A stretch of 64,000 nt of DNA from Candidatus Heimdallarchaeum aukensis (GCA_021513695.1 CP084166.1:896001-960000), one strand, 5' to 3'; numbered from the stretch's first letter, positions 22,356-48,569 are shown. Numbers and translations are program-made. Notes: generated by a model not told the origin, from the sequence alone.

Positions 22356-23588
22356 ATGGAAGAAAGTAAAGACTACTTTTACGACATCCAATTAGATAAA
22401 AAAAATTCTTTAAATAATCAAATGAGAGAAACTCTTCAATCCTTTATTAATTCATTTCCTTTCTATGTTATGCTTATTGACGAGGATCATCACATTCAGC
22501 TTGCTAACAACGCTATCTTAGACCAATTGAAAATGGATCCTACTGCTATTGTTGGTTGTTATTGTCCTTCCAAAATTCACGGTTTAGATTCTCCTTTTGC
22601 TGGTTGTCCTCTTGAAGCATCTAAATCTTCTCTTAAAGCTATTGAACGAGAATATTATTTTAAAGAAGAAGACAGGTGGGTTCGCTCTACTGCTTATCAT
22701 ACTAATATTTTTACTCCTGAAAACAAACGTCTTTTTATTCATCTTACTATTGACATTACTGCTCAGAAGAATGCTGAAAATAAATTGAAGCGTTCTGAGG
22801 AGAAGTATCGTCTTCTTGCTTCTAAATTACAAAAGCTTAATGATTTACATAAGAAATTGAATGAGATCCAAGAGATTTTTATTTACGAACGAGATAAGAC
22901 TTCTTTAATTCATCGTATATGTTCAAAGTTGTCAGAACTTATTAGTTATGATCTTTGTTGGATAGGTATTTTAGATTCAGGTAAGTTAAAGATTTTGGCT
23001 AGTTCTAGTTCTGATTCTGATTCTGGTTCTAGTTCAAGTTCTAGAATTAAAGACTTTTTTACTACTGAAATTGACCTTCATTCCGATGGTCGTTATTCTT
23101 GTTTACATAAGGTTATTGAGCAAAAACAATTAATTGTTATTAACAAGGATAATTTTTCTTGTTCTGATTGTCTATTCCACGACACTTCTTCACCTAATTC
23201 TATCTTAATCTTTCCTATGATTGTTAACGACAATGTTTATGGTATTATCAGTTTATATAAGTCTGAGAGTCACATCTCTGAAAACGAGATATCTATTTTA
23301 CAGACTGTTGCTAATGCTTTAGCTTTTGCTCTTCAATCTATTGAATTAATTGAAAGTCAGAATGAAGCTTTTTCTCAGCTTAAGAGAAATATTGATTATT
23401 TAGAAGATATAATCGATAAAATTAGAAATCCTCTTACTGTTATTCAAGGTTTCGTTGAACTTTATATGAAAGATAAAAGCAGTGCAGCTATCATTAAAGA
23501 ACATATTAACCAAATTGTAGAGATTCTTTCTAAAGTTGACGAAAAATATATTCGTTCTACTGACTTATTCAAACAGTATACTGAATAA
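22356..23588 (+). CDS. PAS/GAF sensor-like protein with degenerate HisKA-like C-terminus (no phospho-acceptor His, no ATPase domain)
   Basis: N-terminal PAS-like region with motif GCYCPSKIHG...FAGCPLE, Ser/Asp low-complexity linker, GAF-like middle, and C-terminal IRNPLTVIQGF resembling the HisKA box but lacking His. Paralog of 29883-31076. Confidence 0.55.
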   Translation: MEESKDYFYDIQLDKKNSLNNQMRETLQSFINSFPFYVMLIDEDHHIQLANNAILDQLKMDPTAIVGCYCPSKIHGLDSPFAGCPLEASKSSLKAIEREYYFKEEDRWVRSTAYHTNIFTPENKRLFIHLTIDITAQKNAENKLKRSEEKYRLLASKLQKLNDLHKKLNEIQEIFIYERDKTSLIHRICSKLSELISYDLCWIGILDSGKLKILASSSSDSDSGSSSSSRIKDFFTTEIDLHSDGRYSCLHKVIEQKQLIVINKDNFSCSDCLFHDTSSPNSILIFPMIVNDNVYGIISLYKSESHISENEISILQTVANALAFALQSIELIESQNEAFSQLKRNIDYLEDIIDKIRNPLTVIQGFVELYMKDKSSAAIIKEHINQIVEILSKVDEKYIRSTDLFKQYTE

Positions 23589-23864
23589 ATAATTTTAACT
23601 TTCTTTTGCAGCTCTATTATAGTTAACAGTCTTAACAATTAATTTATTTTGTCTGTACTTATGATTTTTACTTTTTATGTTTCTTACCTGTTGAAGAGAT
23701 AAGAAAACATTTGAACATTAGTAATAATGTAAATGGTTCTATAGAAAAATCTCTATTTACGCTTGAGATTTAAATGAATTAAAAAACTCTTTTCAAATAT
23801 CTCAAATTTACTTAAATATTTCTAAGCTTTGATTTTTTGGAGTAAACCTCGATTTAATTTTTTA

Positions 23865-24068
23865 CTATCCTTCTGTTATCTTTCGCTTTTTGACCTTTGT
23901 GATTTGAATAGTTCCATCATAAAAAAGTATCCATCTAATTTTATCTCCATTTTTAAGTTCTAGAGCTTCCACAATCTCTTTTGGGACAGTTGTTCTTCTC
24001 CTACTTTCGCGTATTGTCAATGTTGTTTCTGTTACAAATTCTACTTCGTCTAAATCTACTTTTGGCAT
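23865..24068 (-). CDS. AbrB/SpoVT-type (swapped-hairpin) DNA-binding protein
   Basis: 67 aa; RRRTTVPKEIVEALELKNGDKI matches the AbrB/MazE/SpoVT domain consensus. Confidence 0.55.
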   Translation of the reverse strand: MPKVDLDEVEFVTETTLTIRESRRRTTVPKEIVEALELKNGDKIRWILFYDGTIQITKVKKRKITEG

Positions 24069-24276
24069 GTTTATGTGATTAATTTATAACATATATATTT
24101 TTTGGTTGTAATCCAAACTGTTTTGCTAATAAGATAATTAATGTTATCAGAACACATACATGTATTGTCAATTTTTATTCGTCACAAGAACTATCTTATA
24201 CTCCACATTACATTGGTGTGACGTAATACTTATATGGACAATTACCAATGGCCATCAAAACAAGGATAGTGAGATA

Positions 24277-25221
24277 ATGATGGATGCTATTACAACCTTT
24301 TCATTTGGATTATATCTTTTATTTGCATTTATAGCTTTAATTTGTGAATATATTGATTCAGCTTTAGGTGGGGGATATGGAACTATTCTTGTTCCTGTAA
24401 TGATGATCGCCTTTAATATTGATAAGAAATTCCTTATTCCTGCTGTTCTTGTCAGCGAGACAGTCACTGGTCTTGGTTCAGCATTGCTTCATCATTATGT
24501 AGGCAATGCGAATTTTAATATACGAAAAAAGAATAATTCAAGTGAATTCAATAAAACAAATGATATTCTAAAGAGATACAATTCTCCATCTAGTATAATT
24601 AAAGAAAACGGTTACTGTCAAAATTTCTTCTATAGATCTCTAATTACTCGTGCTAAAGATTTTCTTAATAGTTTTAAGGTTTCAGACGACTTTAAAGTTT
24701 CAATGATTTTAGGTTTCTTTGGTATTATTGGTGGCATTTCAGCTGCTTTTCTTTCTTTAAGATTATCTCAAACTTTTGTCAAGATATATATTGGAGCACT
24801 TGTCTTTTTAGTCGGTTTGTTTGTTTTAATAGGTTTCAAATGGAAATTCACGTGGGTTAAAATCTCCATTATTGGTCTAGTTGCAGCGTTTAATAAAGGT
24901 TTATCAGGTGGAGGATATGGACCTCTTATTTCCTCAGGTCAGATTGTTGTAAACCGCAATCCTCGCCAAGCTGTTGCTTCAACTTCACTAGCTGAAGCTT
25001 TAGTATGTATCTCTTCCTTGGTTGTTTATTTTTCTTGCCCAGAAATTACCTTTAATTTTGGTTTCTTGTTTCTCTTACTTTCTCTTTTTATAGGAGCAAC
25101 CCTTTCTGCTCCTCTAGCGGTTCTAACTGTAAAGTATATACCACTTAAGAAAATGCAACCAATTGTTGGACTTGTAACCATGTTATTAGGAATTTTTACG
25201 TTGGTTAAGGTCTTCATTTGA
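24277..25221 (+). CDS. TauE/SafE-family (DUF81) membrane exporter
   Basis: Two internal repeats each carrying a G-x-GGG-Y-G motif (SALGGGYGTILVPV and GLSGGGYGPLISSG) within a polytopic membrane protein. Start moved to the internal Met at 24277. Confidence 0.55.
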   Translation: MMDAITTFSFGLYLLFAFIALICEYIDSALGGGYGTILVPVMMIAFNIDKKFLIPAVLVSETVTGLGSALLHHYVGNANFNIRKKNNSSEFNKTNDILKRYNSPSSIIKENGYCQNFFYRSLITRAKDFLNSFKVSDDFKVSMILGFFGIIGGISAAFLSLRLSQTFVKIYIGALVFLVGLFVLIGFKWKFTWVKISIIGLVAAFNKGLSGGGYGPLISSGQIVVNRNPRQAVASTSLAEALVCISSLVVYFSCPEITFNFGFLFLLLSLFIGATLSAPLAVLTVKYIPLKKMQPIVGLVTMLLGIFTLVKVFI

Positions 25222-25380
25222 AACAAATTTTTATTAATTATTTTATTTTCAGCAAAAGTTCTCTTACTTCAGGTGGGGATAGTTCATACTGCAATTTTCA
25301 CTTTTCACTTGGTGGATACAAAAAGCGAAATAGTAAATTAGTAAAGTAAAAGCAAATAAAACTAGACTTCTTCACTAAAG

Positions 25381-25665
25381 AATATGATATACTAAATCTC
25401 TATACTCTATTCTCTTCTCTTCTCTTTTCTTTTCTTTTCTTTTCTTGGTTGTATGCATGACTTATTTTTTTACGTAAGTTTGTAAAAATTGAATTGAGGG
25501 AGGAGTGAATGTAAAAAAGAAAAAAGAAAAAAGAAAGGAGGAAGGGAGAAGAGAGGAAAATGAGGGGTTTTTATAAGGAAAAAAGGTATAAGTAAGTAAG
25601 AAGAGAAGAAGAAAAGTAAAAAAAAGAAAGAAAAAAAAAGAAAAAAAAGGAAGGAGTAAAGAAGG
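25381..25665. repeat. Low-complexity tract: CT-rich run followed by a long AG-rich run (mirror/imperfect-palindrome purine-pyrimidine tracts) immediately upstream of tnpB
   Basis: (CTCTT/CTTTT)n at about 25381-25450 and (GAAAA/GGAAG)n at about 25500-25665; generates the spurious ORF 25470-25829. Confidence 0.7.
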
Positions 25666-27126
25666 ATGGAGGGCGTCGTTAAAACCTTGAAAGTGAGAAT
25701 AAAGAATGAGGTGTTGACGACTAGAAAAAAGCTAAGGTTAAGGAGAATAACGGGGAGAGACACAAGGATTATAGAAAAGTATGTGAGAATAATACACCAT
25801 AACAGAAGAAAGATATGTATACGAACCAAAAAAGGGAAAATAAGAGTACATAGAGGAAAATTAGATGAGTTGACGCTTACTACTTCAAAAGTTAAAGAAG
25901 AAGAGATGAGAACGACTGTTCCTCACGACCTTAAGAAAATGTTTCCTTACTGTTCTCACAATGAGTTTCAAGAGTGTAGAGATATAGCTGTGCAACTGTA
26001 CGAGCAAGGATATCGACCCAGTTCTAAACGTCCTCTCATAAAGAGAGTAAGAAGGCAACTAATTAATGGAAAAAGATTCATCCTTGTTCATCTACCAAAA
26101 GAAAAGAATAACACTCTTACTCGTTGGTGGGTGGGAATAAGAGACTCGTTAGACACGTGGAAAAGAAATACCCCCTACCATCAGAAGTTGTGGTTACCTT
26201 TAGAGATAAGCACTTTTCATCAGAAAGAGTTGAAAAAAGGACAAGTGAAAAGCCTAGAATTAAGATATAAGCATTCTACACGTGAGTGGTGGGTGTATTT
26301 TCAACTAAAAGTTCTCCCTCCTTCTTCTTTTCTAAGCGATAATTCCTCTTCTTCTTCTCTTCCTCCAGCTGTGCTGGGAATAGATCTGGGGATAAACATT
26401 CCAGGTGCAGGAGTGCTTCTAGCCCCTAAAAAGAAGTTAACTATTAAAGAGATAAAATTCTGGTATACCAAACAGTGGAATAAATTTAATCATAGATATA
26501 AACTTAAACTTTCCCGTCTTCAGAGGAAAGCGGCTTTAAATGACCAGTCGGGTAAAAAACACCAAATTTATCGTTTTCTTGGATATCTTCGAAGAAGATA
26601 TAGAAACGTTAAACGAGCCTATATTCACCAATTTGTAAGCGATATTGTGCGGACAATAGAGAGTTATGCGCAAGTGTATGATCTTTTTGTCGTCGTAGGT
26701 TACCCCAAAAATGTTAGAAAAGGAAAAGGAAAAGAAAAAGGGAAAAGTAAAAGTACTCGTTATTTTCGCAGAAAACTTCATCAGTGGAACTATGCTCATG
26801 TTCTTGGTCTTCTCCGTCGAGCATTGATATTAAGAGGTTTTGCTCCTCACCGCATTCTTATAATAGACGAAAGAGGAACATCTTCTCATTGTTCACGTTG
26901 TGGAAAAGAAGTTTCTCGTCCCGTCAGAGGGTTAGTCTCTTGTCCCTCTTGTAACTATACCTTCCACTCTGATTTAACAGGAGCTAGAAATATTGCTCTT
27001 AAGTTCCTTAGTCATCTTTTTCGTCCCCGTGTTACAACTATTACTGATTACTTTACTGGTCAAAAATTCAGTCTTACCCATTACACTGTTTGCCGAGGGC
27101 TCAGCCATTGGTTGCAGTCCCAGTAG
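25666..27126 (+). CDS. tnpB: TnpB (IS200/IS605-family OrfB, RuvC-like RNA-guided nuclease), solo without tnpA
   Basis: 486 aa. N-terminus MEGVVKTLKVRIKNEV.. matches the typical TnpB start. RuvC-I motif GIDLGINIPGAG. C-terminal zinc ribbon CSRCGKEVSRP...CPSCNYTFHSDLTGARNIA. Confidence 0.8.
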   Translation: MEGVVKTLKVRIKNEVLTTRKKLRLRRITGRDTRIIEKYVRIIHHNRRKICIRTKKGKIRVHRGKLDELTLTTSKVKEEEMRTTVPHDLKKMFPYCSHNEFQECRDIAVQLYEQGYRPSSKRPLIKRVRRQLINGKRFILVHLPKEKNNTLTRWWVGIRDSLDTWKRNTPYHQKLWLPLEISTFHQKELKKGQVKSLELRYKHSTREWWVYFQLKVLPPSSFLSDNSSSSSLPPAVLGIDLGINIPGAGVLLAPKKKLTIKEIKFWYTKQWNKFNHRYKLKLSRLQRKAALNDQSGKKHQIYRFLGYLRRRYRNVKRAYIHQFVSDIVRTIESYAQVYDLFVVVGYPKNVRKGKGKEKGKSKSTRYFRRKLHQWNYAHVLGLLRRALILRGFAPHRILIIDERGTSSHCSRCGKEVSRPVRGLVSCPSCNYTFHSDLTGARNIALKFLSHLFRPRVTTITDYFTGQKFSLTHYTVCRGLSHWLQSQ

Positions 27127-27466
27127 ATAAAAAAGTTCCTTTCTTTTATATCAAGGGATAGGTTCTTTTTTGTCTCTCGTGGAGTGAAGAAAGAAAAAGT
27201 TCTTTTCTTCTTTATGATTCCCATGATTCGTGTATGAGGTCTGTCTCAACCCCTCCCATTCATTGTATTATTGGTTGAGTTCGCAAGAGATCAAACTTTC
27301 TCCTTGCTTGTTTTTTCTCTTGAAAGACTGAGTGCGAAAAACTTACGTAAAAAAGTAAATCATAATCTCTTAATTTGTTAATAACCACACTTATCATTCA
27401 TTCAAGTTGTCTAATAAATGCCTATAGAAATACTCTTTAAGTGATGTTGTTAGATTTTATTTACTT

Positions 27467-28027
27467 ATGCATTTTGTAATTATTTTTGGTCCTCCTGCTG
27501 TTGGTAAAATGTCTGTTGGTAAAGAACTAGCCAATATTACCGGTTTCAAATTATTTCATAATCATATGTCTATTGAACTCGTTTTGACTCTTTTTGATTA
27601 TGGTACTCCTGAATTTAAGCAACTGAATTCTTCTATCCGCAGATTAATTTTCGAAACTGTTTCTTCTAGTAACTTAAGTGGTTTTATTTTTACTTTTGTT
27701 TGGGCTTTTAACATCCCTGAAGATAAACAATATGTTGAATTTGTTTCTGAAATTTTCAGAAAGAATAATTGGAAAGTTTATTTTGTTGAATTACAGTGTA
27801 GTCTTCAAGAGCGTTTAAGAAGAAATAAAACTGAAGAACGATTAAGAGAAAAACCTTCCAAACGCTCAATTAAAGAATCAGAGCAAAGGTTATTGGAGTG
27901 CGAAAAAAAATATGTTTTAAACACTCAGGGAGATTTTTATTTTCCTGAAAAATATATTAAAATTGATAATACTTCCCTTTCTGCTATTGAAGTAGCGGAG
28001 AGAATTAAGAGTTATTTCAACTTTTAA
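27467..28027 (+). CDS. P-loop NTPase, small nucleotide/nucleoside kinase-like (AAA_33-like)
   Basis: 186 aa; Walker A IIFGPPAVGKMSVGKELA at the N-terminus; size and layout like shikimate/adenylate-kinase-fold proteins. Confidence 0.45.
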   Translation: MHFVIIFGPPAVGKMSVGKELANITGFKLFHNHMSIELVLTLFDYGTPEFKQLNSSIRRLIFETVSSSNLSGFIFTFVWAFNIPEDKQYVEFVSEIFRKNNWKVYFVELQCSLQERLRRNKTEERLREKPSKRSIKESEQRLLECEKKYVLNTQGDFYFPEKYIKIDNTSLSAIEVAERIKSYFNF

Positions 28028-28314
28028 GTCGTATAGTATTTTATTGTGTGTTCTTTGCTATTTTTACTATTTTTTATAGTTACTAATTTTTTTCTCAAGT
28101 GTTATTTTTCTTGTTCTTTCAGGTTTGGAAGATTTGTTTATTAGGATCCTTTATTTCATACAGTTGATTTTTTCTAATAAACTATCAAGTGTAAGGAAAA
28201 CAACTAATTCAATTTAATCAAATAAATTTTCTTTAGCTTCTGACTCTTCTCTTATTCTCAAAATTCTCATTTTTTTAACTAAAAACTTTTAAGATTTATT
28301 CAGATAATAACTAT

Positions 28315-29418
28315 ATGGGTCAACTTAACAAACCCCTTGAGCTATTAACCACCTTAAGCAACCATAATGGTTCTATTTCATCTATTAGAGCTGATAAAAC
28401 TTATCTTTACTCTGGTTCGAAAGATGATACTTTAAGAATTTTTAAAAAGAGTAGTTGGGAAGAGGTTACTTCTTTAGTTCATTCGTCTTGGGTTAATTGT
28501 ATAGAAGTAGACACTGAAAAGGTTTACTCTGGCTCTAGTGATTCAACTGTTCGAGTTTGGAAAAAAGGTTCCTGGGGTTTAATTTCTTCCATTAAACATT
28601 CTCGTTTTTCTATTGTTAAAGACATTGCCGTTGATAAAGAGCACTGCTATGTTGTTCTAACTGATCGCTCTTTGATTATCTATTCTAAACAAAAGTTTGT
28701 TGAACAGGATAAACTTACTCATACTGGCATAGTTCAATCAGTAGAGGTTGATAACACTAATATTTATTCATCTCTAAGCGATGGAACAGTTGTTATCTGG
28801 ACTAAGAATAATTACGAAGTGGAGAAAGTATTAACTCTTTCTTCTTTTAAAACAGTAGAACAGCTGGAAATAGATAATGCTTACATTTATACTTCTGTTG
28901 GCAAGAACATTAAAGTTTTTGATAAGAAAAAAAAGGAAGTGGTTAAAGAATTAAAAATCAACAAAGGTATAGTTTCTTTAACAGTCGACGACTCACTTTT
29001 ACTTGTAGCTTCTAAAGACAAGAAAGTTTACATGTGGAAGAAAGAAACATACAAAGAATACTCTCCTCTAATTATTGATAAAGCAATTACTTATATCTAT
29101 TCTGACAATGAATTTATTTATGTGGGTTGCAAAAATGGAGAAATAAAGATTTATACCCATCCAATAAAAAGAAAAACTATAAAAAAACAACCAACAAGAA
29201 CAAAAAAGGTTACTAAAAAAGCTGAAAAAGCCCAAAAAACAGAAGAGCCTATTAAAAAAACTAAAGAAGATAAAAAAGAAAAGAAAAAATCAAAGGATTA
29301 CACTGTCAAAGAAGCAAAAGAGCTTATGAGTAAAATGAGCAATGAAGAGATACTAGAGTTTACAGAAGGAGATAAAAGAGTAACAATACAGAAATATCGA
29401 GAAAAAGAACAAAAATAA
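28315..29418 (+). CDS. WD40-like beta-propeller protein with Lys/Glu-rich C-terminal tail
   Basis: About 7 repeats ending in motifs like DDTLRIFKK, DSTVRVWKK, DGTVVIWTK, KVYMWKK, followed by a 90-aa KKE-rich low-complexity tail. Confidence 0.55.
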   Translation: MGQLNKPLELLTTLSNHNGSISSIRADKTYLYSGSKDDTLRIFKKSSWEEVTSLVHSSWVNCIEVDTEKVYSGSSDSTVRVWKKGSWGLISSIKHSRFSIVKDIAVDKEHCYVVLTDRSLIIYSKQKFVEQDKLTHTGIVQSVEVDNTNIYSSLSDGTVVIWTKNNYEVEKVLTLSSFKTVEQLEIDNAYIYTSVGKNIKVFDKKKKEVVKELKINKGIVSLTVDDSLLLVASKDKKVYMWKKETYKEYSPLIIDKAITYIYSDNEFIYVGCKNGEIKIYTHPIKRKTIKKQPTRTKKVTKKAEKAQKTEEPIKKTKEDKKEKKKSKDYTVKEAKELMSKMSNEEILEFTEGDKRVTIQKYREKEQK

Positions 29419-29882
29419 CTATTTTGCTTTTTTTCTTCTAACACCTTTTTATTTCTTTAATTTTAATATTGGCTATTTTCTTAAATTAGAAAAATAATAC
29501 ATTTTCATAAAGGAAGAAAAGCAGAAATTGACATTGTAATAAAGACTGGCTTCAATTTAACCGTAGTTTCTGTAACAACAAGTAGAACAATAGGTTTGAT
29601 TAAATTAAAACTGTTTGAAGTTCTGCATGTTCTCTTAACCCAGTCCTCACAACTTTCGATATGTTTGTTGACCGGTTGGGTAGAGTCCTGAAGAAATTAA
29701 GTAAAATTTCAACTCATGGAACAAATCAAATTGGAGGAATTCATTCAATGGTTGTTTTGGTCACATTATTGGAAAAATAGCAAGTAGAACAGCTAAAGAG
29801 AGATATCTCTGTTTGAGTTAAAAAATAGAATAAAAATTGTAGGAAAAGAAAAAATAGGTAAGTTATCTGAAATATTACACGT

Positions 29883-31076
29883 TTAAGGTTGATTATACAT
29901 ATCTTGCTCTTTTAGCATTTTTGTTGTTTCTTTATATTTTTTATCTATTTTTTTCATTTTTTTAATAATTTTGTCTATTTGTTCGCGAAAAAGTTGATAC
30001 ATTCCATTTGTTTCGAATTTTAAATCGCTCATTCCTTTCATTACCGTTAAGGGATTTACTATTTGGTCTAGTAATTCTTCTAGTTCTTTTTTGTTCTGTA
30101 ATAATTGGTTTAGCGCTTTTTCTCTTTCTTCGTTAATTTCCAGCATTTCTATGGAAAAACCTAATTCGTTCGCTATTGTGCTAAGAATCACTTCTTCATG
30201 TTCAAAGAACTCTTCCCGTTCTGTTAATAATACCATTATCCCAAATTGTTTCTGTGCTGCGAACATTGGAATAATGACTATATAGCGTGGAGTTTTTCTC
30301 TGTAAAATTGTTGAAGGTACAGCAAGTTCTCTTGCAGAAAAAATTGCATTCTGGTCAAGTTTTACTTTTCTGTTCAATTTATCTAAAAAATTGTATAACT
30401 CTTGTTTTTCTACTTCAGTCAAGTGAGGTCTTGAATTGAGCAATTCTAGCTTTTCATCTTTTTTTCTCAAAATAAAACAATATGTGTAATCGCGGAACTT
30501 ACTTAGTTCTCTAGAGATTGTATCAACCAATACTTGTTTATCTTTAATGTAAATTAGTTTGTTTTGCACAGAAACAGTTACTTTTCCTAACTCGTATATT
30601 TTTTCCAGTTTTTTGGAAAGAAGTTCGAACTTTTCACTTGCTTCAATTAGTTTTTCCTCAGCAAGTTTTCTTTTGGTTATATCAACAGTATAACAAATAA
30701 AGACTCTTTTTCCTTCGTATGTGTAAAAGTTGCTAAAATAAACTCCTGAAATCAACCAACTTTTTTCACCGTATTTGATCTCTCGTTGCACATTTTTTGA
30801 AATCGCTATAGCTTTTTCCAATGGACATCCGCGAAATAGATTATTGACCCCGTGAACAAGATGAGAACAATATCTTCCTATAATTTGTTTTTTTTCTAAA
30901 CCCAATTTTTTTTGGAAAATATCATTAACTAACAGTATGTTATGCTTTTCATCTACTAAAATTATTGGATAAGAAAAACTATCTATGAAACTCTGGATTA
31001 TTGCTATACATTCTTTTGTTAGAATAATTTTCTCTTTTGGTAAACTTACTGGAAAAGTAACATCTTCTCTAATCAT
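29883..31076 (-). CDS. PAS/GAF sensor-like protein, paralog of 22356-23588
   Basis: Shares the N-terminal block FSYPIILVDEKHNILLVN...GRYCSHLVHG...FRGCPLE and C-terminal NPLTVMKGM with the other sensor; no ATPase domain. Confidence 0.55.
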   Translation of the reverse strand: MIREDVTFPVSLPKEKIILTKECIAIIQSFIDSFSYPIILVDEKHNILLVNDIFQKKLGLEKKQIIGRYCSHLVHGVNNLFRGCPLEKAIAISKNVQREIKYGEKSWLISGVYFSNFYTYEGKRVFICYTVDITKRKLAEEKLIEASEKFELLSKKLEKIYELGKVTVSVQNKLIYIKDKQVLVDTISRELSKFRDYTYCFILRKKDEKLELLNSRPHLTEVEKQELYNFLDKLNRKVKLDQNAIFSARELAVPSTILQRKTPRYIVIIPMFAAQKQFGIMVLLTEREEFFEHEEVILSTIANELGFSIEMLEINEEREKALNQLLQNKKELEELLDQIVNPLTVMKGMSDLKFETNGMYQLFREQIDKIIKKMKKIDKKYKETTKMLKEQDMYNQP

Positions 31077-31131: not shown

Positions 31132-31977
31132 TTATCTTTTGCCTTTGAATTTTTTCTTTTTTCTTCTAACCATTAAAAGTACAAAACTTAGAGTTGCAAA
31201 AAAACCTAAATAGACTATCAACTCAAGAGCTGTTGGTTTGTCTTGATAACCAAATAACGATCTTAAGAATCGCCCTATTTCTGTATTTTTATCATCTATA
31301 AATCCACTAGTATCCCATAACTGTTTTTGTAGCCAATATGTTTCTGGCCCAAACCAGTTTATTTCTTGTAGTTCATGTATTCCATAAGTAAACATTCCTG
31401 CAGCAAAGAAAACTAGAAGAATACCTGTTGTTATGAAAAAAGCTTTTATGTTTATTCTCTTTCCTGATAGGAAAACTAAAGCAGCTACTATCAACGCTAC
31501 AACTAGACCTAATACCCCTGACCAAAGCATAGTAAAATAGTTTCCTTCTATTGCTTCTACTCCTGATAGAAACAGAACTGTCTCTACTCCTTCTCTTAGG
31601 ACAGAAAAAACTGTTAATAATAACACCCCGTATTTCTTGCTCTCTTCTAATGTTTGGTCAACCTTTCTTTCTAATCCTTCTTTTATTTTTGACCCCTCTG
31701 AGCTCATCCAGATTATCATCCAACCTAATAGGAGTGAAGCAATGATCATTGTAAAACCTTCAAATATTTCTTCATATCCGCTAAACCCACCTAGTAATAG
31801 TTGGAATAAGACTGCGAAAACGATTGATAGGACTATTCCTATTACCGTTCCTACCCATATCTGTTTTTTCAACTTTCTTTGCTCTATTTTAGAAACATAA
31901 ACTAAAAGTATTCCTACTATTAAAGCAGCTTCCAGAACTTCTCTGAAAGTTATTAGAAAACTGGCTGTGCTAAACAT
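31132..31977 (-). CDS. FTR1/EfeU-family high-affinity iron permease
   Basis: 281 aa, about 7 TM; two REXXE motifs (FREVLEAALIV and LREGVETVLFL) diagnostic of the FTR1 family. Confidence 0.6.
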   Translation of the reverse strand: MFSTASFLITFREVLEAALIVGILLVYVSKIEQRKLKKQIWVGTVIGIVLSIVFAVLFQLLLGGFSGYEEIFEGFTMIIASLLLGWMIIWMSSEGSKIKEGLERKVDQTLEESKKYGVLLLTVFSVLREGVETVLFLSGVEAIEGNYFTMLWSGVLGLVVALIVAALVFLSGKRINIKAFFITTGILLVFFAAGMFTYGIHELQEINWFGPETYWLQKQLWDTSGFIDDKNTEIGRFLRSLFGYQDKPTALELIVYLGFFATLSFVLLMVRRKKKKFKGKR

Positions 31978-32335: not shown

Positions 32336-33110
32336 ATGAACAAACCCGAACGTAACCTGGAGAAACTAAGAAAGATTGTGGTTAAAAAAGCTTTGGAAGG
32401 AGAGAAGATAAAAGAGATAGCTCACAAGTATATGGTGAGTAGGAAGTTTGTGTATAAGTGGTTGAAGAGGTTCAGAGAGAACCATGAAGGAGAATGGTGG
32501 AAAGATAGATCTTCCAGACCAAAAACTATACACAAAAAAGTAGATGAGGAGTTAAAAGAGAGGATAAGGGAGTTAAGAATAAAACAAGGAATGAATGTGG
32601 AGAAGATAGCTTATTTGTTGAAGAGAGAAGGAAAAGCACTCTCTCAGACGACAGTGACGAAAGTAATAAAAGAGTTAGGTCTTCCTTTATGGGTTAATAG
32701 AAAAAAGAGGAAGAGACCTCGATACAAGAGTTTTGAACGTCAAAAACCTAACGAACTCTGGTAGATAGATGTGAAAGGACCATTCTGGGTAGAAGAACAG
32801 GGACAACATCTCCACCTCATAACCTTGATAGACGACCAGTCACGATTCTGTCTGGGAGCTAAATTCCACCCTTTTGCACCAAGAAAAGAGCAGATAATAA
32901 GTTTACTAGAGGAAGCAATAAAAGAGTACGGTTACCCCGAGTCTATCCTCACGGACAATGGAGCACTCTTCTCTTCCGTTAGAGGGAGGAACAAGTACCT
33001 TCTCCCGTTGGTGCCAAACAGAGGGAATAAAACACATCAGAGCTAGAGTTTTTCACCCCGAAACATGTGGAAAAGTAGAAAGATAAATCTATGACTATAT
33101 CCTTATTATT
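32336..33110 (+). pseudogene. IS481-family transposase pseudogene (in-frame TAG, frameshift, 3' truncation)
   Basis: HTH N-terminus; PNELW-TAG-IDVKGPF where Q is expected; integrase-core block LITLIDDQSRF...ILTDNGALFSS. The conserved HPETCGKVER segment falls in a different frame and the end is overrun by the convergent chelatase gene. Confidence 0.65.
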
Positions 33111-35113
33111 TCTGCTCTTGTGTGTTGTGTTATTAGTTCTAAATATGATGGAGCAGGATCTATTCCTTTTTTGTTTCTTGTATCAAATATTGTCATTTTT
33201 ATTTTCTCTTTATTTATTGTTTGTGATAATTCTTCAATTTCCTTCTTTATACTCTTATTCTGTAATGAAGTGTTAGCTTTTCCATCAGTTATTAGTAACG
33301 CTTCTACAATACTCTTTCTGTTCTTATTGCGGAATTTTTTTGTGATACTTAATAGGGATTGAAATCCTGATGCTAATGGCGTTCTTCCTCCTGTAGGTAA
33401 AGTTTTCAATGCATCTATTACACGACAATAATCTCTTGTAGGAGGTACTGTAACATTAGCTTTCTTTCCTCTGAATGCTATCATACCAATATAGTCTCTT
33501 TTTACATATGCTTTTTCAACAAACTTTTCTGCTAAGCCTTTTGCTACACTAATTCTCCTTTGTAATCCCATGCTACCACTAGAATCTAAGATAATCAAGG
33601 TGAGTTTTGGTAATTGTTGTTTTCTTACTTTTACTCGTATCTCATCATCTGTAATTCTTAGTGGTAATTTCTTCATATTCCCTATAGCAGCATACAAGGT
33701 TCCAGATATGTCAATATCTCGTAATTGTTCCTTCTTATTTGGAGGTACATATGAAACAGGATGGCCTTGTAGTGAACCTACTGTTGTTATTCTAGCACTC
33801 CTTGAACCTCTCCACATATGATCGTCACTTAAGTTCTCATGTGCTCGCTGTATCTTTTTTTTTATCTCAATATCTGTTTTTGCACTCTCAAACGTTTCTT
33901 CATGTTCTCCCATTTTGTTATTATCTATATCGTTAGGCTTTTTTTTTACCTCTCTTTCAGCTTTTGTTTCCTCATTTCTTCCTTCCTGTTTTTCTTCTTC
34001 GTTTTTGTTGGATTCCATATCCTTTGTAATTTTTTCTATCATCTCTTGGGGAGCTATGTTATCAAATGGATTTGTTCTTAATCTATGGGGTAAAGCTAGT
34101 TCCATTGCTTTTTTTATGTCCTCTAATGTTACATCTCTACGTCCATCAAGTGCTGCAATTGCCTTTGCTGTTTTTACTGTAACAATTTCAGCTCTATGTG
34201 TCTTTATCCCTAATTTCATTATTGATTTTATTAAGGAGTTTAACAATTCATCATTAATGATTATTGTATCAATAATTTTCCTTGCATCAGTTACTGCTTT
34301 TCTAATTGTATTCTCTTCTCTTTCATATTCCAAGTAAAATTTATCTGGATTCTTGTGAAACTTTTCGACTCTTCTTATAACCTCAATTCTTTCTTCAAAC
34401 TTCTCCAAAGCCTCAATATTAACGTATAAACCAAATCTGTCCAACAATTGGGGGCGTAATTCCCCTTCTTCAGGGTTCATACTCCCTACTAATATAAATC
34501 TCGCAGGATGTTTTACTGAAATGCCCTCCCTTTCAATAATATTCCATCCCATAGCTGCAGCATCAAGCAATACATCAGCTACATAGTCATCTAAAAGATT
34601 CACTTCGTCAATGTACAAGATATTTCTATTTGCTTCTGCTAATATTCCCAGTTCTAAAGCTCTTACACCTTGGGTTAAAGCTTTTTTTATGTTCAGTGTT
34701 CCAACTAGTCTGTCTACTGTAACAGTTAATGGTAAATCTACTACTCTCATTCGTTTTGATGAGATTTTCAATTTCTGCCCTTCTATTGTCATACCATAAC
34801 AGGAATCGCACATTTCTAAATGATGGTACGGATTACAGTTGAAAGGACATTGTGCTACAACCTCAACCTCTGGTAGGACATATGATAATGCCCGAACAAT
34901 TGTTGACTTACCTGTGCCTTTTTCGCCAGTTAGGAGCACTCCTCCTATCGTTGGATCAACTGCGCAACATAGTAGTGCAAGTTTAGCTTTTTCCTGTTCC
35001 ACTATAGCAGTGAAGGGAAATACGATCTTTCTTTCATTTTTGTTCCTTTCTGTTAGATGTCCCATTTTGTATTCACTCATCTCTTTAGTTTTCATTCTCT
35101 TTGTTTTGAACAA
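33095..35113 (-). CDS. Fused ChlI/ChlD-like class I chelatase ATPase subunit (AAA+ MoxR-type N-terminus + vWA C-terminus), CobS/CobT-equivalent
   Basis: Walker A LLTGEKGTGKST and Cys-rich CPFNCNPYH in the N-terminal ChlI/BchI-like part; C-terminal vWA MIDAS motif ILDSSGSMG; immediately downstream of cobN. Confidence 0.8.
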   Translation of the reverse strand: MFKTKRMKTKEMSEYKMGHLTERNKNERKIVFPFTAIVEQEKAKLALLCCAVDPTIGGVLLTGEKGTGKSTIVRALSYVLPEVEVVAQCPFNCNPYHHLEMCDSCYGMTIEGQKLKISSKRMRVVDLPLTVTVDRLVGTLNIKKALTQGVRALELGILAEANRNILYIDEVNLLDDYVADVLLDAAAMGWNIIEREGISVKHPARFILVGSMNPEEGELRPQLLDRFGLYVNIEALEKFEERIEVIRRVEKFHKNPDKFYLEYEREENTIRKAVTDARKIIDTIIINDELLNSLIKSIMKLGIKTHRAEIVTVKTAKAIAALDGRRDVTLEDIKKAMELALPHRLRTNPFDNIAPQEMIEKITKDMESNKNEEEKQEGRNEETKAEREVKKKPNDIDNNKMGEHEETFESAKTDIEIKKKIQRAHENLSDDHMWRGSRSARITTVGSLQGHPVSYVPPNKKEQLRDIDISGTLYAAIGNMKKLPLRITDDEIRVKVRKQQLPKLTLIILDSSGSMGLQRRISVAKGLAEKFVEKAYVKRDYIGMIAFRGKKANVTVPPTRDYCRVIDALKTLPTGGRTPLASGFQSLLSITKKFRNKNRKSIVEALLITDGKANTSLQNKSIKKEIEELSQTINKEKIKMTIFDTRNKKGIDPAPSYLELITQHTRAEIIRI

Positions 35114-38100
35114 ATTTGTTCCATGTTTGTGTTATATTAGTTAATTTATTCTTCCAGTTTTCTACCTCTTCTGGACTATACATCCTTATTTCTCCCCCTT
35201 GAATCTCTGCTTCTCCACCTAAACTATCCTCTAGTACACCTTCAATATCGGCATATGCTTCTTCTAAATTGTCTTTCATCTCTTCTGTGGGTTGCCACAA
35301 CTTCCTTTCTATTGCTTCAGTAAGTCTTCTAGAAATCTCTTCTGCTGCCCATATATTGTTTTCAGCAAACCATTTTCTCATTTCTTCATCAATTATGTAT
35401 GTTTCTGCAATGTTATCGAATACCCAATCGTTAACTAATTTCGTTGTTGATGACCAGCCGTACAAATGCAAGATTTTCTTTGAGAATTCATTTGCTCCTC
35501 GATAACCATGCTTCTTCATTTCAGATATCCATGTTGGATTTAGCAGTTTTGCTCTTACAATTCTCTCTATCTCTTCTTTTATTCCTCGTATTTCTGCTCT
35601 TGTTATGTCTTTAGTATCTACAACAACTATTTCTACATCGTCTTTACCAGTCAGACTTTTTACTGTATTATAAAAACCTCCATGGGTGGAAAAATAACAG
35701 CAACAATTGAGAATATCATGTTCATCAGTAATATGATTTCTTGTAATAACTTCGACATTTTTCAAGTTCATTATTAAGCCTTCAGGGTTTGGTTCACCAA
35801 ATAGCTTTTTAGTATACATGTAACAGCCCCATTGTACCCACGTTTTAGCTAGATCTTCGTCATCTTTCCAAGCTGACGATTCAATAGCATAATTTACTCC
35901 AGATCCATAAGTACCTGAAGGGCTACACCAAACCCTACATTTTGCAATTTCGTGATTTTTTTCCCCACGTAACTCAGTCAAATATTCAAGATAATGCTTT
36001 TTGACATAATTAACATCTGTTGACTCTTCAAGCATAACAACCTTTGATACTGCTTCATCGATCAACTGAAAATAAATTGGTAGAGTATCTCTTACTATTC
36101 CACTGATTCGAACAGAAACATCGATTCGTGGCCTTCCAAGTTCTTCTAACGGAATAACTTCAACTCCTTTAACTGTTCCATCGGTTCGCCAAATAGGCTT
36201 AGTTCCTAATAAATAAAGAATCTGTGAGATCTGTTCTCCGTCTCCTTTATAACCATCAAGACTCCATAACCATTGACCAATAGTTTCTGGATATTTGCCA
36301 TGATGCTTATCGTAATGTTCAAGTAATTTTTCTGCTGTCTCTATTCCTATCTTCCATGCTGCGCGTGTTGGAATACTTGTAGGATCAATAGCATAAAAAT
36401 TCCTTCCAGTGGGTAGTATCTCTATCTTCCCTCTTGTTATTGACCCTGAGGGGCCAGGTTCTATAAACTGTCCACTTATCCCATATAAGAATCCATCTGT
36501 TTCAACTTTACATTCTTGAATTCTTTTTGCTATTTCTAATGCTCTTTGAAATGCTTCAAGAGCTTCTGCCTTTGAAGTGAATTTTAATTTTAATTCATTC
36601 ACTTTGGAACTCATATTTTCTATTAACTTCTTATGGAGGATTTCTGTGAAAGCTTCCATCGTGAGTTTTTCGTTATTAGTTTCATTTTCAAGAAGAGTCT
36701 TCAAAACCTCTATTGCAACTTTATGTAATATTTTAAGAGTATCTTTATTTAGAAGACCATATTCATTAATAACTAGTTTGTTGTTTCTTAAATGATTATA
36801 ATCAAGCCCAATACACTCTGCAAGACACCTTCTTATTGAATGAAATGAATGGGTATCATAACTCATTGTAGTGACTACATATTCTGCTAACTTTACTGAG
36901 TTTTTAGTGGGGTAGCCAAAAATATGCAATCCCATTTCGATTTGTGTTTCCATTGTCGCGTTTAGATAATTATGGATCTCCTCTACAACATGTTTAGGAT
37001 CTTCTTTTGTGATTGGAATATTGCTTTCTTTTGCTTTTTTTATGAGCTCTTCATATATTACTCTCACCCTAGCATTGTCACCCAGTTGTTCTGCTTTAGA
37101 ATATTCAGTTAATAATGAATCGATTTCGTCAAGCACTTCTGCCATTGCTAAAGGAGGGTACATGTGATCCACTATAGTGGCATAGCTTCTTCTCTTAGCT
37201 ATTACTCCTTCCATCGGATTCGAAACATTATAGACATATAGATGAGGAATATCATCAATAGATATTTCTGGCCAACATGAAGGTGATAAACCTACTCCTT
37301 TACCTGGTCTAAATTCAAGGTATCCATGTGTTCCAAAATGAACAATCATGTTTGCCTTCCAAATTCTTGAAATCCATCTATATACTGCAAACCATTGATG
37401 TGGAGGTGAAATCGATGGGTCATGAAGAATTTTGCATACATTGCCATCACAAGCTGCACCCGCACAGCCAGGCTTTGGTTGCGTGATAACTAGAACATTT
37501 CCAAAACTTATACCTGGTATGACAAACTTATTGTTATAAACCATACCAATTAACGGTTTAGGAGCTTTTCCCAAAAGAATATCCTCAGGATAGCCCCAAT
37601 CTTCTTGAATTTTCTCTTTAGTATCTATAGGTAGCTCGTTAAACCAGTTCATATATGTTTTAAGATCAGAATAACCAACTGCTCCACCTTTTTTCACTAT
37701 TTCGTCAACAGATGTCCAACGAAACTCACTTATTGCTTTTCGTTCAGTGAACATCTCAACTAGCTCTTTTCCATCCTTTGGAAGCGTTTCACCAATATTG
37801 TAACCTCTCTTCTTTAAGTCTTTAAGAAGTCGAACAACACTTTCGGGAACATCAAGGCCAAATCCAACACCAATACTTCCTTCAAGACTCTTACATGGCG
37901 GAGTTATTAGGACAATTGCTATTTTTCGCTTCTCTGGAGGAAGATATCGTAAAGTGATCCATTTCTTTACACGTTTAGCGATATATTGGGCATGGTGTTC
38001 AAAACATTCGTACCTCTTTATTCCTTGGGGATCAATCTTTGCACCACCTAAATATATAGGCTCAATAATCCCATCTACTTCAGGCATGATTACTGTATAG

Positions 38101-38987: not shown

Positions 38988-38989
38988 GA

Positions 38990-39781
38990 TTAATCGGTCA
39001 CCTCGACTGGATAAACACTGATTGGATAGACAATTTTACAATGATTGTTGTTGATTATTCTCGCGTTTATTCCATATGCTTTTGCGATATTTGCTTCATT
39101 AATGACTACTTCTGGTTTTCCTGCCCCTATTATTTGACCTTTAGCAAGTATAACAATAAAATTTGAAAATCTCAATGCTAAATTAGGATCATGTTGGCTC
39201 ATTATTGCGCATATTTTTCTTTCTTTTACAATCTTGTTAATTATAGTCATAACTTTTAGTTGGTTTTTCAGATCTAAATGTGCAGTTGGTTCATCAAGAA
39301 TCAACACTTCTGGCTCTTGAGTTAAAGCTCTTGCAATTAATAATAATTGGCGTTCTCCTCCGCTAATTTGAGTATATGACCTGTCTCTCATATGGTAAAG
39401 ATTAACAAGTTTCAGCATTTCTTCAGCTTTAGAATAATCCTCTTCTGATGGCAGAGAAAACATTGAAGTGTAGGGAGTTCGCCCTAAAAGAACAAAATCT
39501 AGAGCAGAAAGAGCAAATAAAGGATTGTGATTTTGAGGAACATACCCGATTATTTTTGCCCTTTCCCTTTGTCCTATCTCGAAAATACTTTTCTTGTCTA
39601 TAAAAATACAGCCTTTTTTTGGCTTTAGAAGAGTACAGATGCATTTTAAAAGTGTAGTCTTGCCAGAACCATTTGGACCCAGTAGACTAACGACTCCACC
39701 TTTTTCAACTTGTATTTTTATCTCTCTTAATTCAAATTCAATATCATACGAAAATGAAAGATTATCAATTACTAATGCCAT
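38990..39781 (-). CDS. ABC transporter ATP-binding protein (FepC/BtuD/FhuC type)
   Basis: Walker A LLGPNGSGKTTLLK, signature LSGGERQ, Walker B LILDEPTAHLD. Confidence 0.85.
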   Translation of the reverse strand: MALVIDNLSFSYDIEFELREIKIQVEKGGVVSLLGPNGSGKTTLLKCICTLLKPKKGCIFIDKKSIFEIGQRERAKIIGYVPQNHNPLFALSALDFVLLGRTPYTSMFSLPSEEDYSKAEEMLKLVNLYHMRDRSYTQISGGERQLLLIARALTQEPEVLILDEPTAHLDLKNQLKVMTIINKIVKERKICAIMSQHDPNLALRFSNFIVILAKGQIIGAGKPEVVINEANIAKAYGINARIINNNHCKIVYPISVYPVEVTD

Positions 39782-40800: not shown

Positions 40801-40832
40801 AGTAACTCACATGTAAATTTTGGTAACTAACT

Positions 40833-41894: not shown

Positions 41895-41912
41895 ATTGGA
41901 TAAGTTATAAAA

Positions 41913-41939
41913 GTGTTACGATTTTAATATTCGTAACAC
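41913..41939. promoter_or_regulatory. Perfect inverted repeat GTGTTACGA-N9-TCGTAACAC in the promoter region of the transporter/chelatase operon (candidate metal-regulator operator)
   Basis: 9-bp arms, perfect dyad symmetry, about 20-45 bp upstream of the SBP start and next to a TTTATAA-like element. Confidence 0.4.
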
Positions 41940-42058
41940 ATTGTTTGTATCCGAAAAAGATTAGAATAAGAACTTTTTAGGAACAAAGCCCCTGTCTCTC
42001 AAAAATTATTTGCCAATAGATCTATAAATAGAAAAGAAAAAAAGCAAGAAGAAGAAAT

Positions 42059-42338: not shown

Positions 42339-42341
42339 CTC

Positions 42342-48300: not shown

Positions 48301-48420
48301 TATCTTCTTTTTCCTCATAGACCTTAATTTTCACACTACTTAGTTCAGCTTAAACATTTATTCCTGCTATACGCAATAGACTTGAAAACGTATTTTCACA
48401 CTACTTAGTTCAGCTTAAAC
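42342..48420 (-). CRISPR. CRISPR array 1: about 92 copies of the 29-bp repeat ATTTTCACACTACTTAGTTCAGCTTAAAC (+ strand) with 35-40 bp spacers; leader at the 48420 end, so it is transcribed on the - strand
   Basis: Perfect periodic repeat of about 66 bp seen directly; the transcribed orientation is GTTTAAGCTGAACTAAGTAGTGTGAAAAT, identical to array 2. Confidence 0.95.
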
Positions 48421-48535: not shown

Positions 48536-48569
48536 CTTATAAACAATGACTAGTACCATTAAATTTGCT

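What the first reader, a model, noticed from the sequence alone, without database searches (positions are those of the whole stretch)
22356..31076. Two paralogous PAS/GAF 'kinase-like' proteins with a conserved Cys/His cluster and a His-less HisKA box bracket the accessory island in inverted orientation
Seen in sequence: both proteins share C-x-C/C-x4-H-G...GCP in the PAS domain (candidate metal, heme or Fe-S ligand set) and end in NPLTV(I/M)(Q/K)G where histidine kinases have H-E-x-x-T-P-L. Neither has an ATPase domain. They may be a family of non-phosphorylating sensors/regulators; one sits next to the FTR1 iron permease, suggesting iron/redox sensing. They flank AbrB, TauE, TnpB, a kinase-like protein and a WD40 protein on opposite strands.
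Basis: partly seen in the sequence, partly recalled or inferred. Interest (0 to 1): 0.5.

Follow-up and report, generated by a model that had tools for sequence, protein, structure and literature searches.

The report
Kinase-dead sensor pair in Heimdallarchaeon
Two related sensor proteins of an Asgard archaeon keep the sensing and dimerising parts of a bacterial-type histidine kinase but have lost the phosphorylated histidine (now an aspartate) and the whole ATP-using domain. They belong to a little-studied archaeal family that most likely switches partner signalling proteins off rather than on.

Summary
A (22356-23588 +, 410 aa) and B (29883-31076 -, 397 aa) are paralogues (32% identity, E 3e-58) from Candidatus Heimdallarchaeum aukensis. 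Each is PAS + GAF + a C-terminal HisKA-like helical hairpin and ends there. There is no ATPase domain in any frame, and orthologues end the same way, so these are not frameshifted kinases.

The H-box is D-x-I-[RV]-N-P-L, and the Asp aligns ungapped with the phospho-His of EnvZ. This 'D-box' module defines a family: 382 confirmed loci, and the 80 examined are all Archaeoglobi or Methanomicrobiales. It matches the 'HisKA, no HATPase' non-enzymatic HK-like proteins of Galperin et al. 2018. Only D, N, P and L are invariant. The kinase-specific residues are gone and the phosphatase-specific Asn is kept.

In Archaeoglobi, D-box genes abut or are fused to receiver domains and sit next to real kinases. 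The best reading is therefore a sensor-gated response-regulator phosphatase or modulator. This is inferred, not shown.

The PAS belongs to a widespread, uncharacterised subfamily with invariant H45, C70, H75, C84 and H129 (Cys in B). This is probably a metal or metallocofactor site. Iron sensing is only circumstantial, and the 'bracketing of an island' has no support. Verdict: a new member of a known kind.

The parts
22356..23588 (+). Protein A (410 aa), PAS-GAF-D-box. It is 100% identical to the NCBI entry 'GAF domain-containing protein', Ca. Heimdallarchaeum aukensis.
   Evidence: AF2 mean pLDDT 87.7
22413..22790 (+). A: PAS domain (aa 20-145) of the Cys/His subfamily.
   Evidence: PAS-only AF2 model pLDDT 95
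22488..22742 (+). A: span holding the conserved candidate ligand residues H45, C70, H75, C84 and H129. C68 is specific to the A lineage. E87, Y114 and D133 are nearly invariant.
   Evidence: mapping onto pocket positions of YtvA LOV
22890..23336 (+). A: GAF domain (aa 179-327) with a Ser-rich insert. Its C-x2-C (C268, C271) sits at the position of a CxxC found in 12 of 69 D-box proteins.
23343..23585 (+). A: DHp-like helical hairpin (aa 330-409, the 'D-box' module). D354 (nt 23415-23417) occupies the phospho-His position and N358 the phosphatase T/N position.
29883..31076 (-). Protein B (397 aa), PAS-GAF-D-box; UJG41593.1, annotated 'PAS domain S-box protein'.
30648..30998 (-). B: PAS domain (aa 27-143) with H45, C70, H75 and C84. 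C128 takes the place of the otherwise invariant His.
30147..30536 (-). B: GAF domain (aa 181-310), without the CxxC.
29901..30140 (-). B: DHp-like hairpin. D337 (nt 30066-30068) is at the phospho-His position, and there is no His anywhere in the hairpin.
31132..31977 (-). FTR1-family iron permease, 55 nt upstream of B on the same strand. This is context only and membership in the system is not shown.
23865..24068 (-). AbrB/MazE-type small DNA-binding protein, convergent with A. A-small ORF-TauE order is kept in a 79% orthologue contig. This is context only.

Best explanation
A and B are dimeric cytoplasmic sensors of the archaeal 'HisKA, no HATPase' family. Each has three parts:
- a PAS domain with a buried Cys/His site, probably holding a metal or metallocofactor;
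- a GAF domain;
- a C-terminal DHp-type helical hairpin, where the phospho-accepting His is an invariant Asp and the ATP-binding domain is absent.

They cannot autophosphorylate. The hairpin has lost the kinase-specific features: His, the acidic residue at +1, and the CA domain. It keeps the one residue that HisKA domains need specifically for phosphatase activity, Asn at +4, together with Pro-Leu. With the Asp this makes a D-x-x-x-N pair on one helical face, the spacing of the CheZ/NarX DxxxQ phosphatase motif.

The most likely mechanism is as follows. The signal sensed by PAS/GAF is passed down the long helices to the four-helix bundle. The bundle then binds a phosphorylated receiver-domain protein and accelerates its dephosphorylation, or at least binds or sequesters it. 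This opposes a separate kinase.

Shown: the architecture, the substitutions, their family-wide conservation, purifying selection, and the gene and domain linkage to receiver domains and kinases in Archaeoglobi.

Inferred: dimerisation, receiver binding, phosphatase activity, the nature of the PAS ligand, and that the Heimdall proteins still work with receiver proteins at all.
For: Architecture and loss of kinase parts:
- Domains and the absence of a CA domain.
- The Asp aligns ungapped with EnvZ His243 and the Asn with T247.
- In a 12-sequence alignment from three lineages only D, N, P and L are invariant. The residue after the Asp varies: H, K, Q, R, S, G, E or A.
- 382 tblastn-confirmed loci were found. 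In the 75 loci analysed the protein ends right after the hairpin.
- dN/dS is 0.19-0.32.

Linkage to two-component genes in 36 Archaeoglobi loci:
- A stand-alone REC gene lies immediately downstream in 6 loci.
- REC is fused in 3 loci: L019 D-box-REC, and L037 and L044 REC-...-D-box.
- REC lies within 6 kb in 17 loci.
- A bona fide kinase is on the same strand in 12 loci, for example D-box-REC-HK in L030 and L032, and HK-D-box overlapping in L034 and L041.

Literature:
- T/N at +4 is the phosphatase-specific residue, E/D at +1 is the kinase-specific residue, and the His is not required for phosphatase activity. CheZ and NarX use DxxxQ (PMC3510030).
- Galperin et al. already suggested RR phosphatase activity for this class (PMC5847659).
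Against: - There is no REC or HK gene in the 64-kb window or on the 9.8-kb contig of the 57% orthologue. The two-component repertoire of this genome could not be examined.
- The 39 Methanomicrobiales loci also lack adjacent REC or HK genes, so the linkage is lineage-specific.
- The REC and HATPase HMMs were home-built, and five of the REC hits were in the seed.
- B has Val instead of Arg before the Asn, and its HisKA match is weak (E 0.12).
- Phosphatase activity of a DHp without a CA domain is documented only for EnvZ. I recall this from the literature and did not check it here.
- No activity, binding or oligomeric state was tested.
Confidence: 0.5

Rival explanations
1. TCS-independent sensors. 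The D-box hairpin is only a dimerisation and output helix bundle. In Heimdallarchaeia it signals by direct contact with non-receiver partners, for example the neighbouring AbrB-type regulator or TauE for A, and FTR1 or the metal-uptake cluster for B.
For: - There are no REC or HK neighbours in the Heimdall loci or in the Methanomicrobiales loci.
- A-small ORF-TauE order is kept in a 79% orthologue.
- The FTR1-B pair is kept in close relatives.
- Archaeal signalling is thought to work largely by protein-protein contacts (PMC5847659).
Against: - This does not explain why exactly the RR-facing H-box residues N-P-L and an acidic residue at position 0 are invariant across three archaeal lineages.
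- The synteny evidence comes only from very close relatives. The 57% orthologue has different neighbours.
Confidence: 0.22
2. Kinase antagonists acting by heterodimerisation. The His-less hairpin pairs with the DHp of a real histidine kinase and poisons its trans-autophosphorylation, as RetS does to GacS.
For: D-box genes abut bona fide kinase genes in 12 of 36 Archaeoglobi loci. A CA-less, His-less DHp is the expected form of a dominant-negative subunit.
Against: - The neighbouring kinases carry a different H-box family (R-H-D-[IV]-x-N-x-L) from the D-box (x-I-R-N-P-L), which makes mixed bundles less likely.
- Natural D-box-REC fusions and coupled REC genes point to the receiver as the partner.
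- No kinase gene is near A or B.
Confidence: 0.13
3. Decaying remnants of ordinary histidine kinases, truncated by frameshift or deletion and without function.
For: They descend from NtrB/AtoS-type kinases. A bacterial protein, P0005, has the same Cys/His PAS followed by A-H-T-I-R-N-P-L and a full HATPase domain.
Against: - The same stop position is kept in orthologues of 57-98% identity and across the whole family.
- dN/dS is 0.19-0.32.
- D, N, P and L are invariant.
- No ATPase-like remnant is present downstream in any frame.
Confidence: 0.03

Closest known systems
'HisKA, no HATPase' non-enzymatic HK-like proteins of Archaeoglobi and Methanomicrobia (Galperin et al. 2018, PMC5847659), e.g. 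Archaeoglobus fulgidus O29676 / AAB90662.1
   Same: - Sensor domains (PAS, GAF) followed by a terminal HisKA-like hairpin with no ATPase domain.
- Direct homology of the hairpin, and for O29676-type proteins of the whole Cys/His-PAS ... D-box architecture.
- The same proposed role, phosphatase towards response regulators.
   Different: - The published description speaks of a conserved His. In A and B there is none (D-K and D-Q).
- The His of most members (D-H-I-R-N-P-L) lies one residue after the canonical position and is replaceable, whereas the Asp is invariant.
- A and B come from an Asgard lineage not listed for this class, and they lack the REC and HK neighbours seen in Archaeoglobi.
EnvZ/NtrB/AtoS-type HisKA (DHp) domain of bifunctional histidine kinases
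   Same: - Homologous helical hairpin. The best solved matches are EnvZ DHp, HK853, KinB and ThkA.
- The R-[TN]-P-L core, with the phosphatase-specific T/N, is kept.
   Different: His is replaced by Asp, the acidic +1 residue by K or Q, and there is no CA domain, so no kinase or phosphotransfer activity is possible.
CheZ, and the DxxxQ motif of HisKA_3 kinases such as NarX
   Same: An acidic residue and an amide residue four positions apart on a helix of a helical bundle: D354-x3-N358 in A and D337-x3-N341 in B. This fits a dedicated, kinase-independent phosphatase logic.
   Different: There is no sequence homology to CheZ, and the amide is Asn rather than Gln. The analogy rests on motif spacing only and is untested.
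Pseudo-kinases and kinase antagonists (DivL with Tyr for His; RetS acting on GacS) — recalled from the literature, not checked here
   Same: HK-derived proteins that signal without phosphorylating their own H-box residue.
   Different: Those proteins retain a CA domain. A and B have none.
Cofactor-binding PAS sensors: NreB Fe-S PAS (CX2CX11C(X2C), PMC13478379), LOV (YtvA), WalK Zn-PAS
   Same: - Candidate ligands lie in the Eα-Fα region and on Iβ of the PAS pocket.
- C70 aligns with the photoactive Cys of YtvA, and E87 and H129 align with its FMN-contacting R79 and G121 positions.
- NreB is a precedent for Cys-ligated Fe-S clusters in PAS domains.
   Different: - The motif is C-x4-H-x8-C-P plus two distant His.
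- The flavin-binding residues of LOV are not kept.
- The WalK zinc ligands fall on other positions.
- No solved structure exceeds 18% identity.

Membership tests
Sensor histidine kinase (HisKA + HATPase_c) | Phospho-accepting His in the H-box | tested here: not met
   Asp at that position in A (D354) and B (D337). It aligns ungapped with EnvZ His243.
Sensor histidine kinase (HisKA + HATPase_c) | Catalytic ATP-binding (HATPase_c) domain | tested here: not met
   No Pfam or NCBIfam match. There are stops in all downstream frames. A home-built CA HMM finds nothing in the window.
Sensor histidine kinase (HisKA + HATPase_c) | Acidic residue at His+1, required for kinase activity (PMC3510030) | tested here: not met
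   Lys in A and Gln in B.
Sensor histidine kinase (HisKA + HATPase_c) | DHp helical hairpin homologous to HisKA | tested here: met
   - Pfam HisKA 3.7e-7, above the cut-off, for A; weak (0.12) for B.
- The family profile hits EnvZ and HK853 DHp.
- AF2 gives two long helices, 309-370 and 374-409.
'HisKA, no HATPase' non-enzymatic HK-like proteins (Galperin 2018) | [quoted passage not shown] | tested here: met
   Homology to Archaeoglobus members, including A. fulgidus AAB90662.1.
'HisKA, no HATPase' non-enzymatic HK-like proteins (Galperin 2018) | Conserved His residue in the HisKA-like domain, as worded in the paper | tested here: not met
   - A and B have D-K and D-Q, and B has no His in the hairpin.
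- Across the family the His is at +1 and is replaced in about 15% of members, whereas the Asp is invariant.
- One of the two search patterns required D-H, so that percentage is biased.
Dedicated response-regulator phosphatase | Acidic + amide residue pair on one helical face (CheZ DxxxQ, CheX ExxN, HisKA T/N) | tested here: met
   D-x-x-x-N is invariant in the family. The motif definitions are from PMC3510030.
Dedicated response-regulator phosphatase | A receiver-domain partner | tested here: inconclusive
   No REC is in the window or on the orthologue contigs. In Archaeoglobi relatives REC is adjacent in 6, fused in 3, and within 6 kb in 17 of 36 loci.
Dedicated response-regulator phosphatase | Acceleration of REC~P hydrolysis | not testable with these tools
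   Needs biochemistry.
NreB-type Fe-S PAS sensor | CX2CX11C(X2C) motif in the PAS domain | tested here: not met
   The motif here is C-x4-H-x8-C-P. The NreB motif is from PMC13478379.
LOV/flavin PAS | Photoactive Cys plus the FMN-binding Arg/Gln/Asn set | tested here: not met
   The Cys aligns, but R79 is replaced by E87, N94 by D/F102 and G121 by H129.
Metal or metallocofactor-binding PAS (generic) | Bound metal, Fe-S cluster or heme | not testable with these tools
   Only conservation is available: H45, C70, H75, C84 and H129 (Cys in B) are invariant in 144 segments. No model coordinates were available to measure the geometry.
Genomic island or composite transposon bracketed by the two genes | Flanking DNA repeats, an integrase or tRNA, or deviant composition | tested here: not met
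   - No long repeats link the A and B flanks. The only clean inverted repeat bounds the TnpB element itself.
- No tRNA or RNA family was found.
- GC is only slightly raised at 26-28 kb.

The most novel reading that the evidence does not exclude
The invariant Asp on the DHp helix is itself a phospho-acceptor. In this reading D-box proteins take the phosphoryl group from a phosphorylated receiver domain as an acyl-phosphate and lose it by hydrolysis. That would be an Asp-to-Asp 'phosphate sink' or relay step, gated by a new Cys2His3 metallo-PAS sensor, and a chemistry not known in two-component signalling.
Probability: 0.04. Interest if true: 0.85.

Novelty: new member of a known kind. Interest (0 to 1): 0.4.

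Why it matters
- Class refinement: the 'HisKA, no HATPase' class has been catalogued but never studied. This work shows that its hallmark is an invariant Asp at the phospho-His position plus the phosphatase-specific Asn, not a conserved His.
- Taxonomic reach: the class extends to Heimdallarchaeia, the archaeal lineage closest to eukaryotes.
- Gene context: in Archaeoglobi it sits in three-gene sets with a kinase and a receiver.
- Testable model: together these give a model of a sensor-gated phosphatase arm in archaeal two-component signalling, with cultivable Archaeoglobus species as test systems.
- PAS subfamily: the PAS domain belongs to a large bacterial and archaeal subfamily with five invariant Cys/His residues and no known ligand. 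Identifying its cofactor would annotate the sensors of hundreds of kinases.

Tried and rejected
1. Frameshifted kinase. Rejected: there is no CA remnant in any frame and the stop is conserved.
2. WalK-like zinc site formed by D42/H45 and H129/D133. Rejected: the profile alignment puts the WalK ligands H271, D274, H364 and E368 on other positions.
3. Measuring ligand geometry in the AF2 models. Not possible, because coordinates are not exposed.
5. Family-wide locus search with the mixed alignment A1. It failed for lack of a conserved 7-10-mer. It was redone with the D-H subfamily alignment A2, which biases the +1 residue counts.
6. The word-indexed protein searches returned mostly short proteins. 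Taxon and architecture counts therefore rest on the representative search and the locus scan.
7. Rfam scan of the window found nothing.
8. Repeat search for island borders found nothing beyond the ends of the TnpB element.
9. Literature searches for this PAS motif found no description.
10. A genome-wide census of paralogues, receivers and kinases in H. aukensis could not be done, because only the window and 10-kb loci are accessible. In the 1.84-billion representative library, B's only full-length match below E 1e-30 is the A-type cluster (P0004); the other such hit, P0008, is a 127-aa fragment of B itself.

Full report
**What is there**

The window comes from Candidatus Heimdallarchaeum aukensis. 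Protein A is 100% identical to an NCBI entry from a 3.08-Mb contig of that organism, and B is UJG41593.1.

A (22356-23588, +, 410 aa) and B (29883-31076, -, 397 aa) are paralogues with 32% identity over 357 residues, E 3e-58. Pfam finds PAS, GAF and a partial HisKA match in both. In A the HisKA match passes the curated cut-off, but it begins at profile position 13, just after the phospho-His.

An AlphaFold2 model of A (mean pLDDT 87.7) shows four elements:
- a PAS fold (strands 37-133);
- a long connecting helix;
- a GAF domain (181-302);
- a terminal hairpin of two long helices (309-370 and 374-409).

Neither gene is followed by anything resembling an ATPase domain in any frame. Home-built HATPase and receiver HMMs find nothing in the whole 64 kb.

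**The H-box**

A reads I-I-D-K-I-R-N-P-L-T-V-I-Q-G and B reads L-L-D-Q-I-V-N-P-L-T-V-M-K-G. A profile of twelve such C-terminal modules aligns without gaps to the EnvZ DHp domain. The Asp falls on His243, the next residue on Asp244, and the Asn on Thr247. The phospho-acceptor is therefore replaced by Asp in both proteins. B has no His anywhere in the hairpin. The single His in A's second helix is not conserved.

**Not truncated kinases**

- Orthologues of A at 88%, 79% and 57% identity, and of B above 90%, end at the same place.
- dN/dS is 0.19-0.32.
- The feature is family-wide, as the next section shows.

**The family**

An exhaustive search with B turned up proteins from other lineages that end in the same module and lack G1/G2 ATPase boxes: P0011, P0013, P0015, P0031, P0033, P0034, P0059, P0064 and P0127. 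In the alignment only D, N, P and L are invariant.

A scan of one genome per GTDB species gave 382 tblastn-confirmed loci. The best 80 all come from Archaeoglobi or Methanomicrobiales. In 75 loci with a recognisable ORF, the protein stops 57-88 residues after the Asp. The clear exception is a fusion to a receiver domain.

The residue after the Asp is usually His. It can also be K, Q, R, S, G, E or A. One of the two search patterns demanded D-H, so its share is overestimated.

Members include Archaeoglobus fulgidus AAB90662.1/O29676, A. sulfaticallidus AGK61607.1 and an A. neptunius protein.

This is the class that Galperin et al. 2018 described as 'nonenzymatic HK-like proteins' ('HisKA, no HATPase'). 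They found it mainly in Archaeoglobi and Methanomicrobia and proposed that it might dephosphorylate response regulators (PMC5847659). That paper speaks of a conserved His. My alignments indicate that this His is the +1 residue, that it is dispensable, and that the Asp is the invariant feature. A and B are members without any His, from a lineage not listed there.

**What the module probably does**

Willett and Kirby showed three things for HisKA domains (PMC3510030):
- The T/N four residues after the His is the residue required specifically for phosphatase activity.
- The E/D next to the His is required specifically for kinase activity.
- The His is not required for phosphatase activity.

CheZ and NarX use an acid-amide pair, DxxxQ (same paper). 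The D-box keeps the phosphatase residue and has lost every kinase feature. Asp(0) and Asn(+4) form a DxxxN pair on one helical face.

Gene context in Archaeoglobi supports a link to two-component signalling. Among 36 loci:
- A stand-alone receiver gene follows the D-box gene within a few bases in 6 loci.
- A receiver domain is fused in 3 loci: C-terminal in L019, N-terminal in L037 and L044.
- A receiver gene lies within 6 kb in 17 loci.
- A bona fide kinase gene is on the same strand in 12 loci, often abutting. Examples are D-box-REC-HK in L030 and L032, and HK-D-box overlapping in L034 and L041.

The adjacent receivers have the usual phospho-acceptor and Mg-binding residues (read from the sequences). 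The adjacent kinases carry a different H-box type, R-H-D-[IV]-x-N-x-L. This argues against the D-box protein being a decayed copy of its neighbour or forming mixed bundles with it.

I therefore favour a sensor-gated response-regulator phosphatase, or at least a receiver-binding modulator. The caveats are serious:
- The 39 Methanomicrobiales loci and all Heimdall loci lack such neighbours.
- I could not inspect the rest of the H. aukensis genome.
- Nothing biochemical is known.

**The PAS domain**

B's PAS domain has hundreds of relatives at 35-42% identity. They occur in bona fide kinases of bacteria and archaea, in giant multi-PAS proteins and in stand-alone PAS proteins, for example from Aminicenantes and Thermoleophilia.

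In 144 aligned segments, C70, H75, C84 and P85 are invariant, partly because they were used for selection. The following were not used for selection:
- H45, 143 of 144;
- N51, 144 of 144;
- H129, 140 of 141.

The only exception at position 129 is B, which has Cys. D42, E87, W108, Y114 and D133 exceed 90%. A His-to-Cys swap at an otherwise invariant position is what one expects of a metal ligand.

Profile alignment to YtvA LOV gives these correspondences:
- C70 falls on the photoactive Cys62.
- E87 falls on the FMN-phosphate Arg79.
- Position 102 falls on Asn94.
- Y114 falls on Leu106.
- H129 falls on Gly121.

These are residues that line the canonical PAS pocket, so the conserved polar residues probably form an internal site. 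The flavin-binding set is not kept, and the WalK zinc ligands map elsewhere. The NreB Fe-S motif differs (CX2CX11C, PMC13478379). No solved structure is closer than 18% identity.

Both Cys are followed by Pro. From general knowledge, this fits Fe-S and metal knuckles as well as heme-regulatory Cys-Pro motifs. The cofactor cannot be assigned from sequence, and I found no paper describing this subfamily.

A additionally carries a CxxC in its GAF domain, at the position of a CxxC in 12 of 69 D-box proteins. B does not.

**Context and the 'island'**

FTR1 lies 55 nt upstream of B on the same strand. The pair recurs only in relatives more than 90% identical. The spacer has a T5 run and a TATA-like TTTAAAA about 30 nt before the ATG, so an operon is possible but not shown.

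Further upstream on the same strand, beyond a broken IS, lie a ChlD/ChlI-like chelatase subunit, CobN and a FecCD-type ABC transporter with its binding protein. B thus sits at the edge of a metal/tetrapyrrole gene run. This is mild support for a metal-related signal.

For A, the order A-small ORF-TauE is kept in a 79% orthologue but not in the 57% one.

Nothing marks the 6-kb stretch between A and B as an island:
- no long repeats relate the flanks;
- no tRNA or integrase is present;
- composition is barely different.

The only mobile piece is a TnpB element with its own 25-nt inverted ends. At 32% protein identity the two genes are old duplicates, and their convergent arrangement is best taken as coincidence.

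**Verdict**

The class is already catalogued, so this is a new member of a known kind. Three refinements are useful:
- the invariant Asp;
- the REC and HK linkage;
- a widespread Cys2His3 PAS subfamily of unknown ligand.

Mechanism confidence is moderate (0.5) and interest is 0.4.

Noticed in passing
window 42406-48355, and 52023-54863: A large CRISPR array of roughly 90 units with period about 65 nt and repeat ATTTTCACACTACTTAGTTCAGCTTAAAC. No ORF of 50 aa or more lies in 41894-48565. Cas6 (52023-52745) and Cas8b/TM1802 (52851-54863) lie nearby, suggesting a type I-B system.
   Followed up: partly
window 25457-27363: The TnpB-like ORF (25666-27126, Cas12f1-like TNB domain) is bounded by a 25-nt inverted repeat, 25457-25481 and 27339-27363, 92% complementary. 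These are probably the ends of a 1.9-kb IS element.
   Followed up: partly
window 32336-33046: Two short ORFs carry IS481/IS630-type HTH domains and an integrase-core-like fragment. This looks like a disrupted transposase sitting between FTR1 and the chelatase genes.
   Followed up: no
window 33095-41894 (- strand): A run of metal/tetrapyrrole genes: periplasmic binding protein (Peripla_BP_2), FecCD permease, ABC ATPase, CobN-type chelatase (1300 aa) and a ChlI/ChlD-like AAA+-VWA subunit. They are on the same strand as FTR1 and B.
   Followed up: partly
window 22989-23033 (A, aa 212-226): A Ser/Asp-rich low-complexity insert (SSSSDSDSGSSSSS) interrupts A's GAF domain. pLDDT is 57-69 there. It is variable in orthologues and absent from B.
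   Followed up: no
L033 6263-7333; also P0009: In Archaeoglobi the same Cys/His PAS domain also heads small bona fide kinases with an R-H-D-V-x-N-N-L H-box. In L033 such a kinase overlaps the end of a D-box gene and is followed by a receiver gene.
   Followed up: partly
D-box family, helix 2 (for example L009-L088; A aa 392-402): The second hairpin helix ends in a conserved acidic-aromatic motif, L-D-E-G-W-I-E-S-E-K-I-R. It reads V-D-E-K-Y-I-R-S in A and I-D-K-K-Y-K-E-T in B. Its role is unknown. It superficially resembles the W-acidic receiver-binding tail reported for WalK (title seen, paper not read).
   Followed up: no
window 24160-25221: The TauE ORF as listed starts about 40 codons upstream of the likely start (MMDAITTF...). 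The Pfam match covers only the C-terminal half strongly, and a polar insert of about 70 residues splits the two halves.
   Followed up: no
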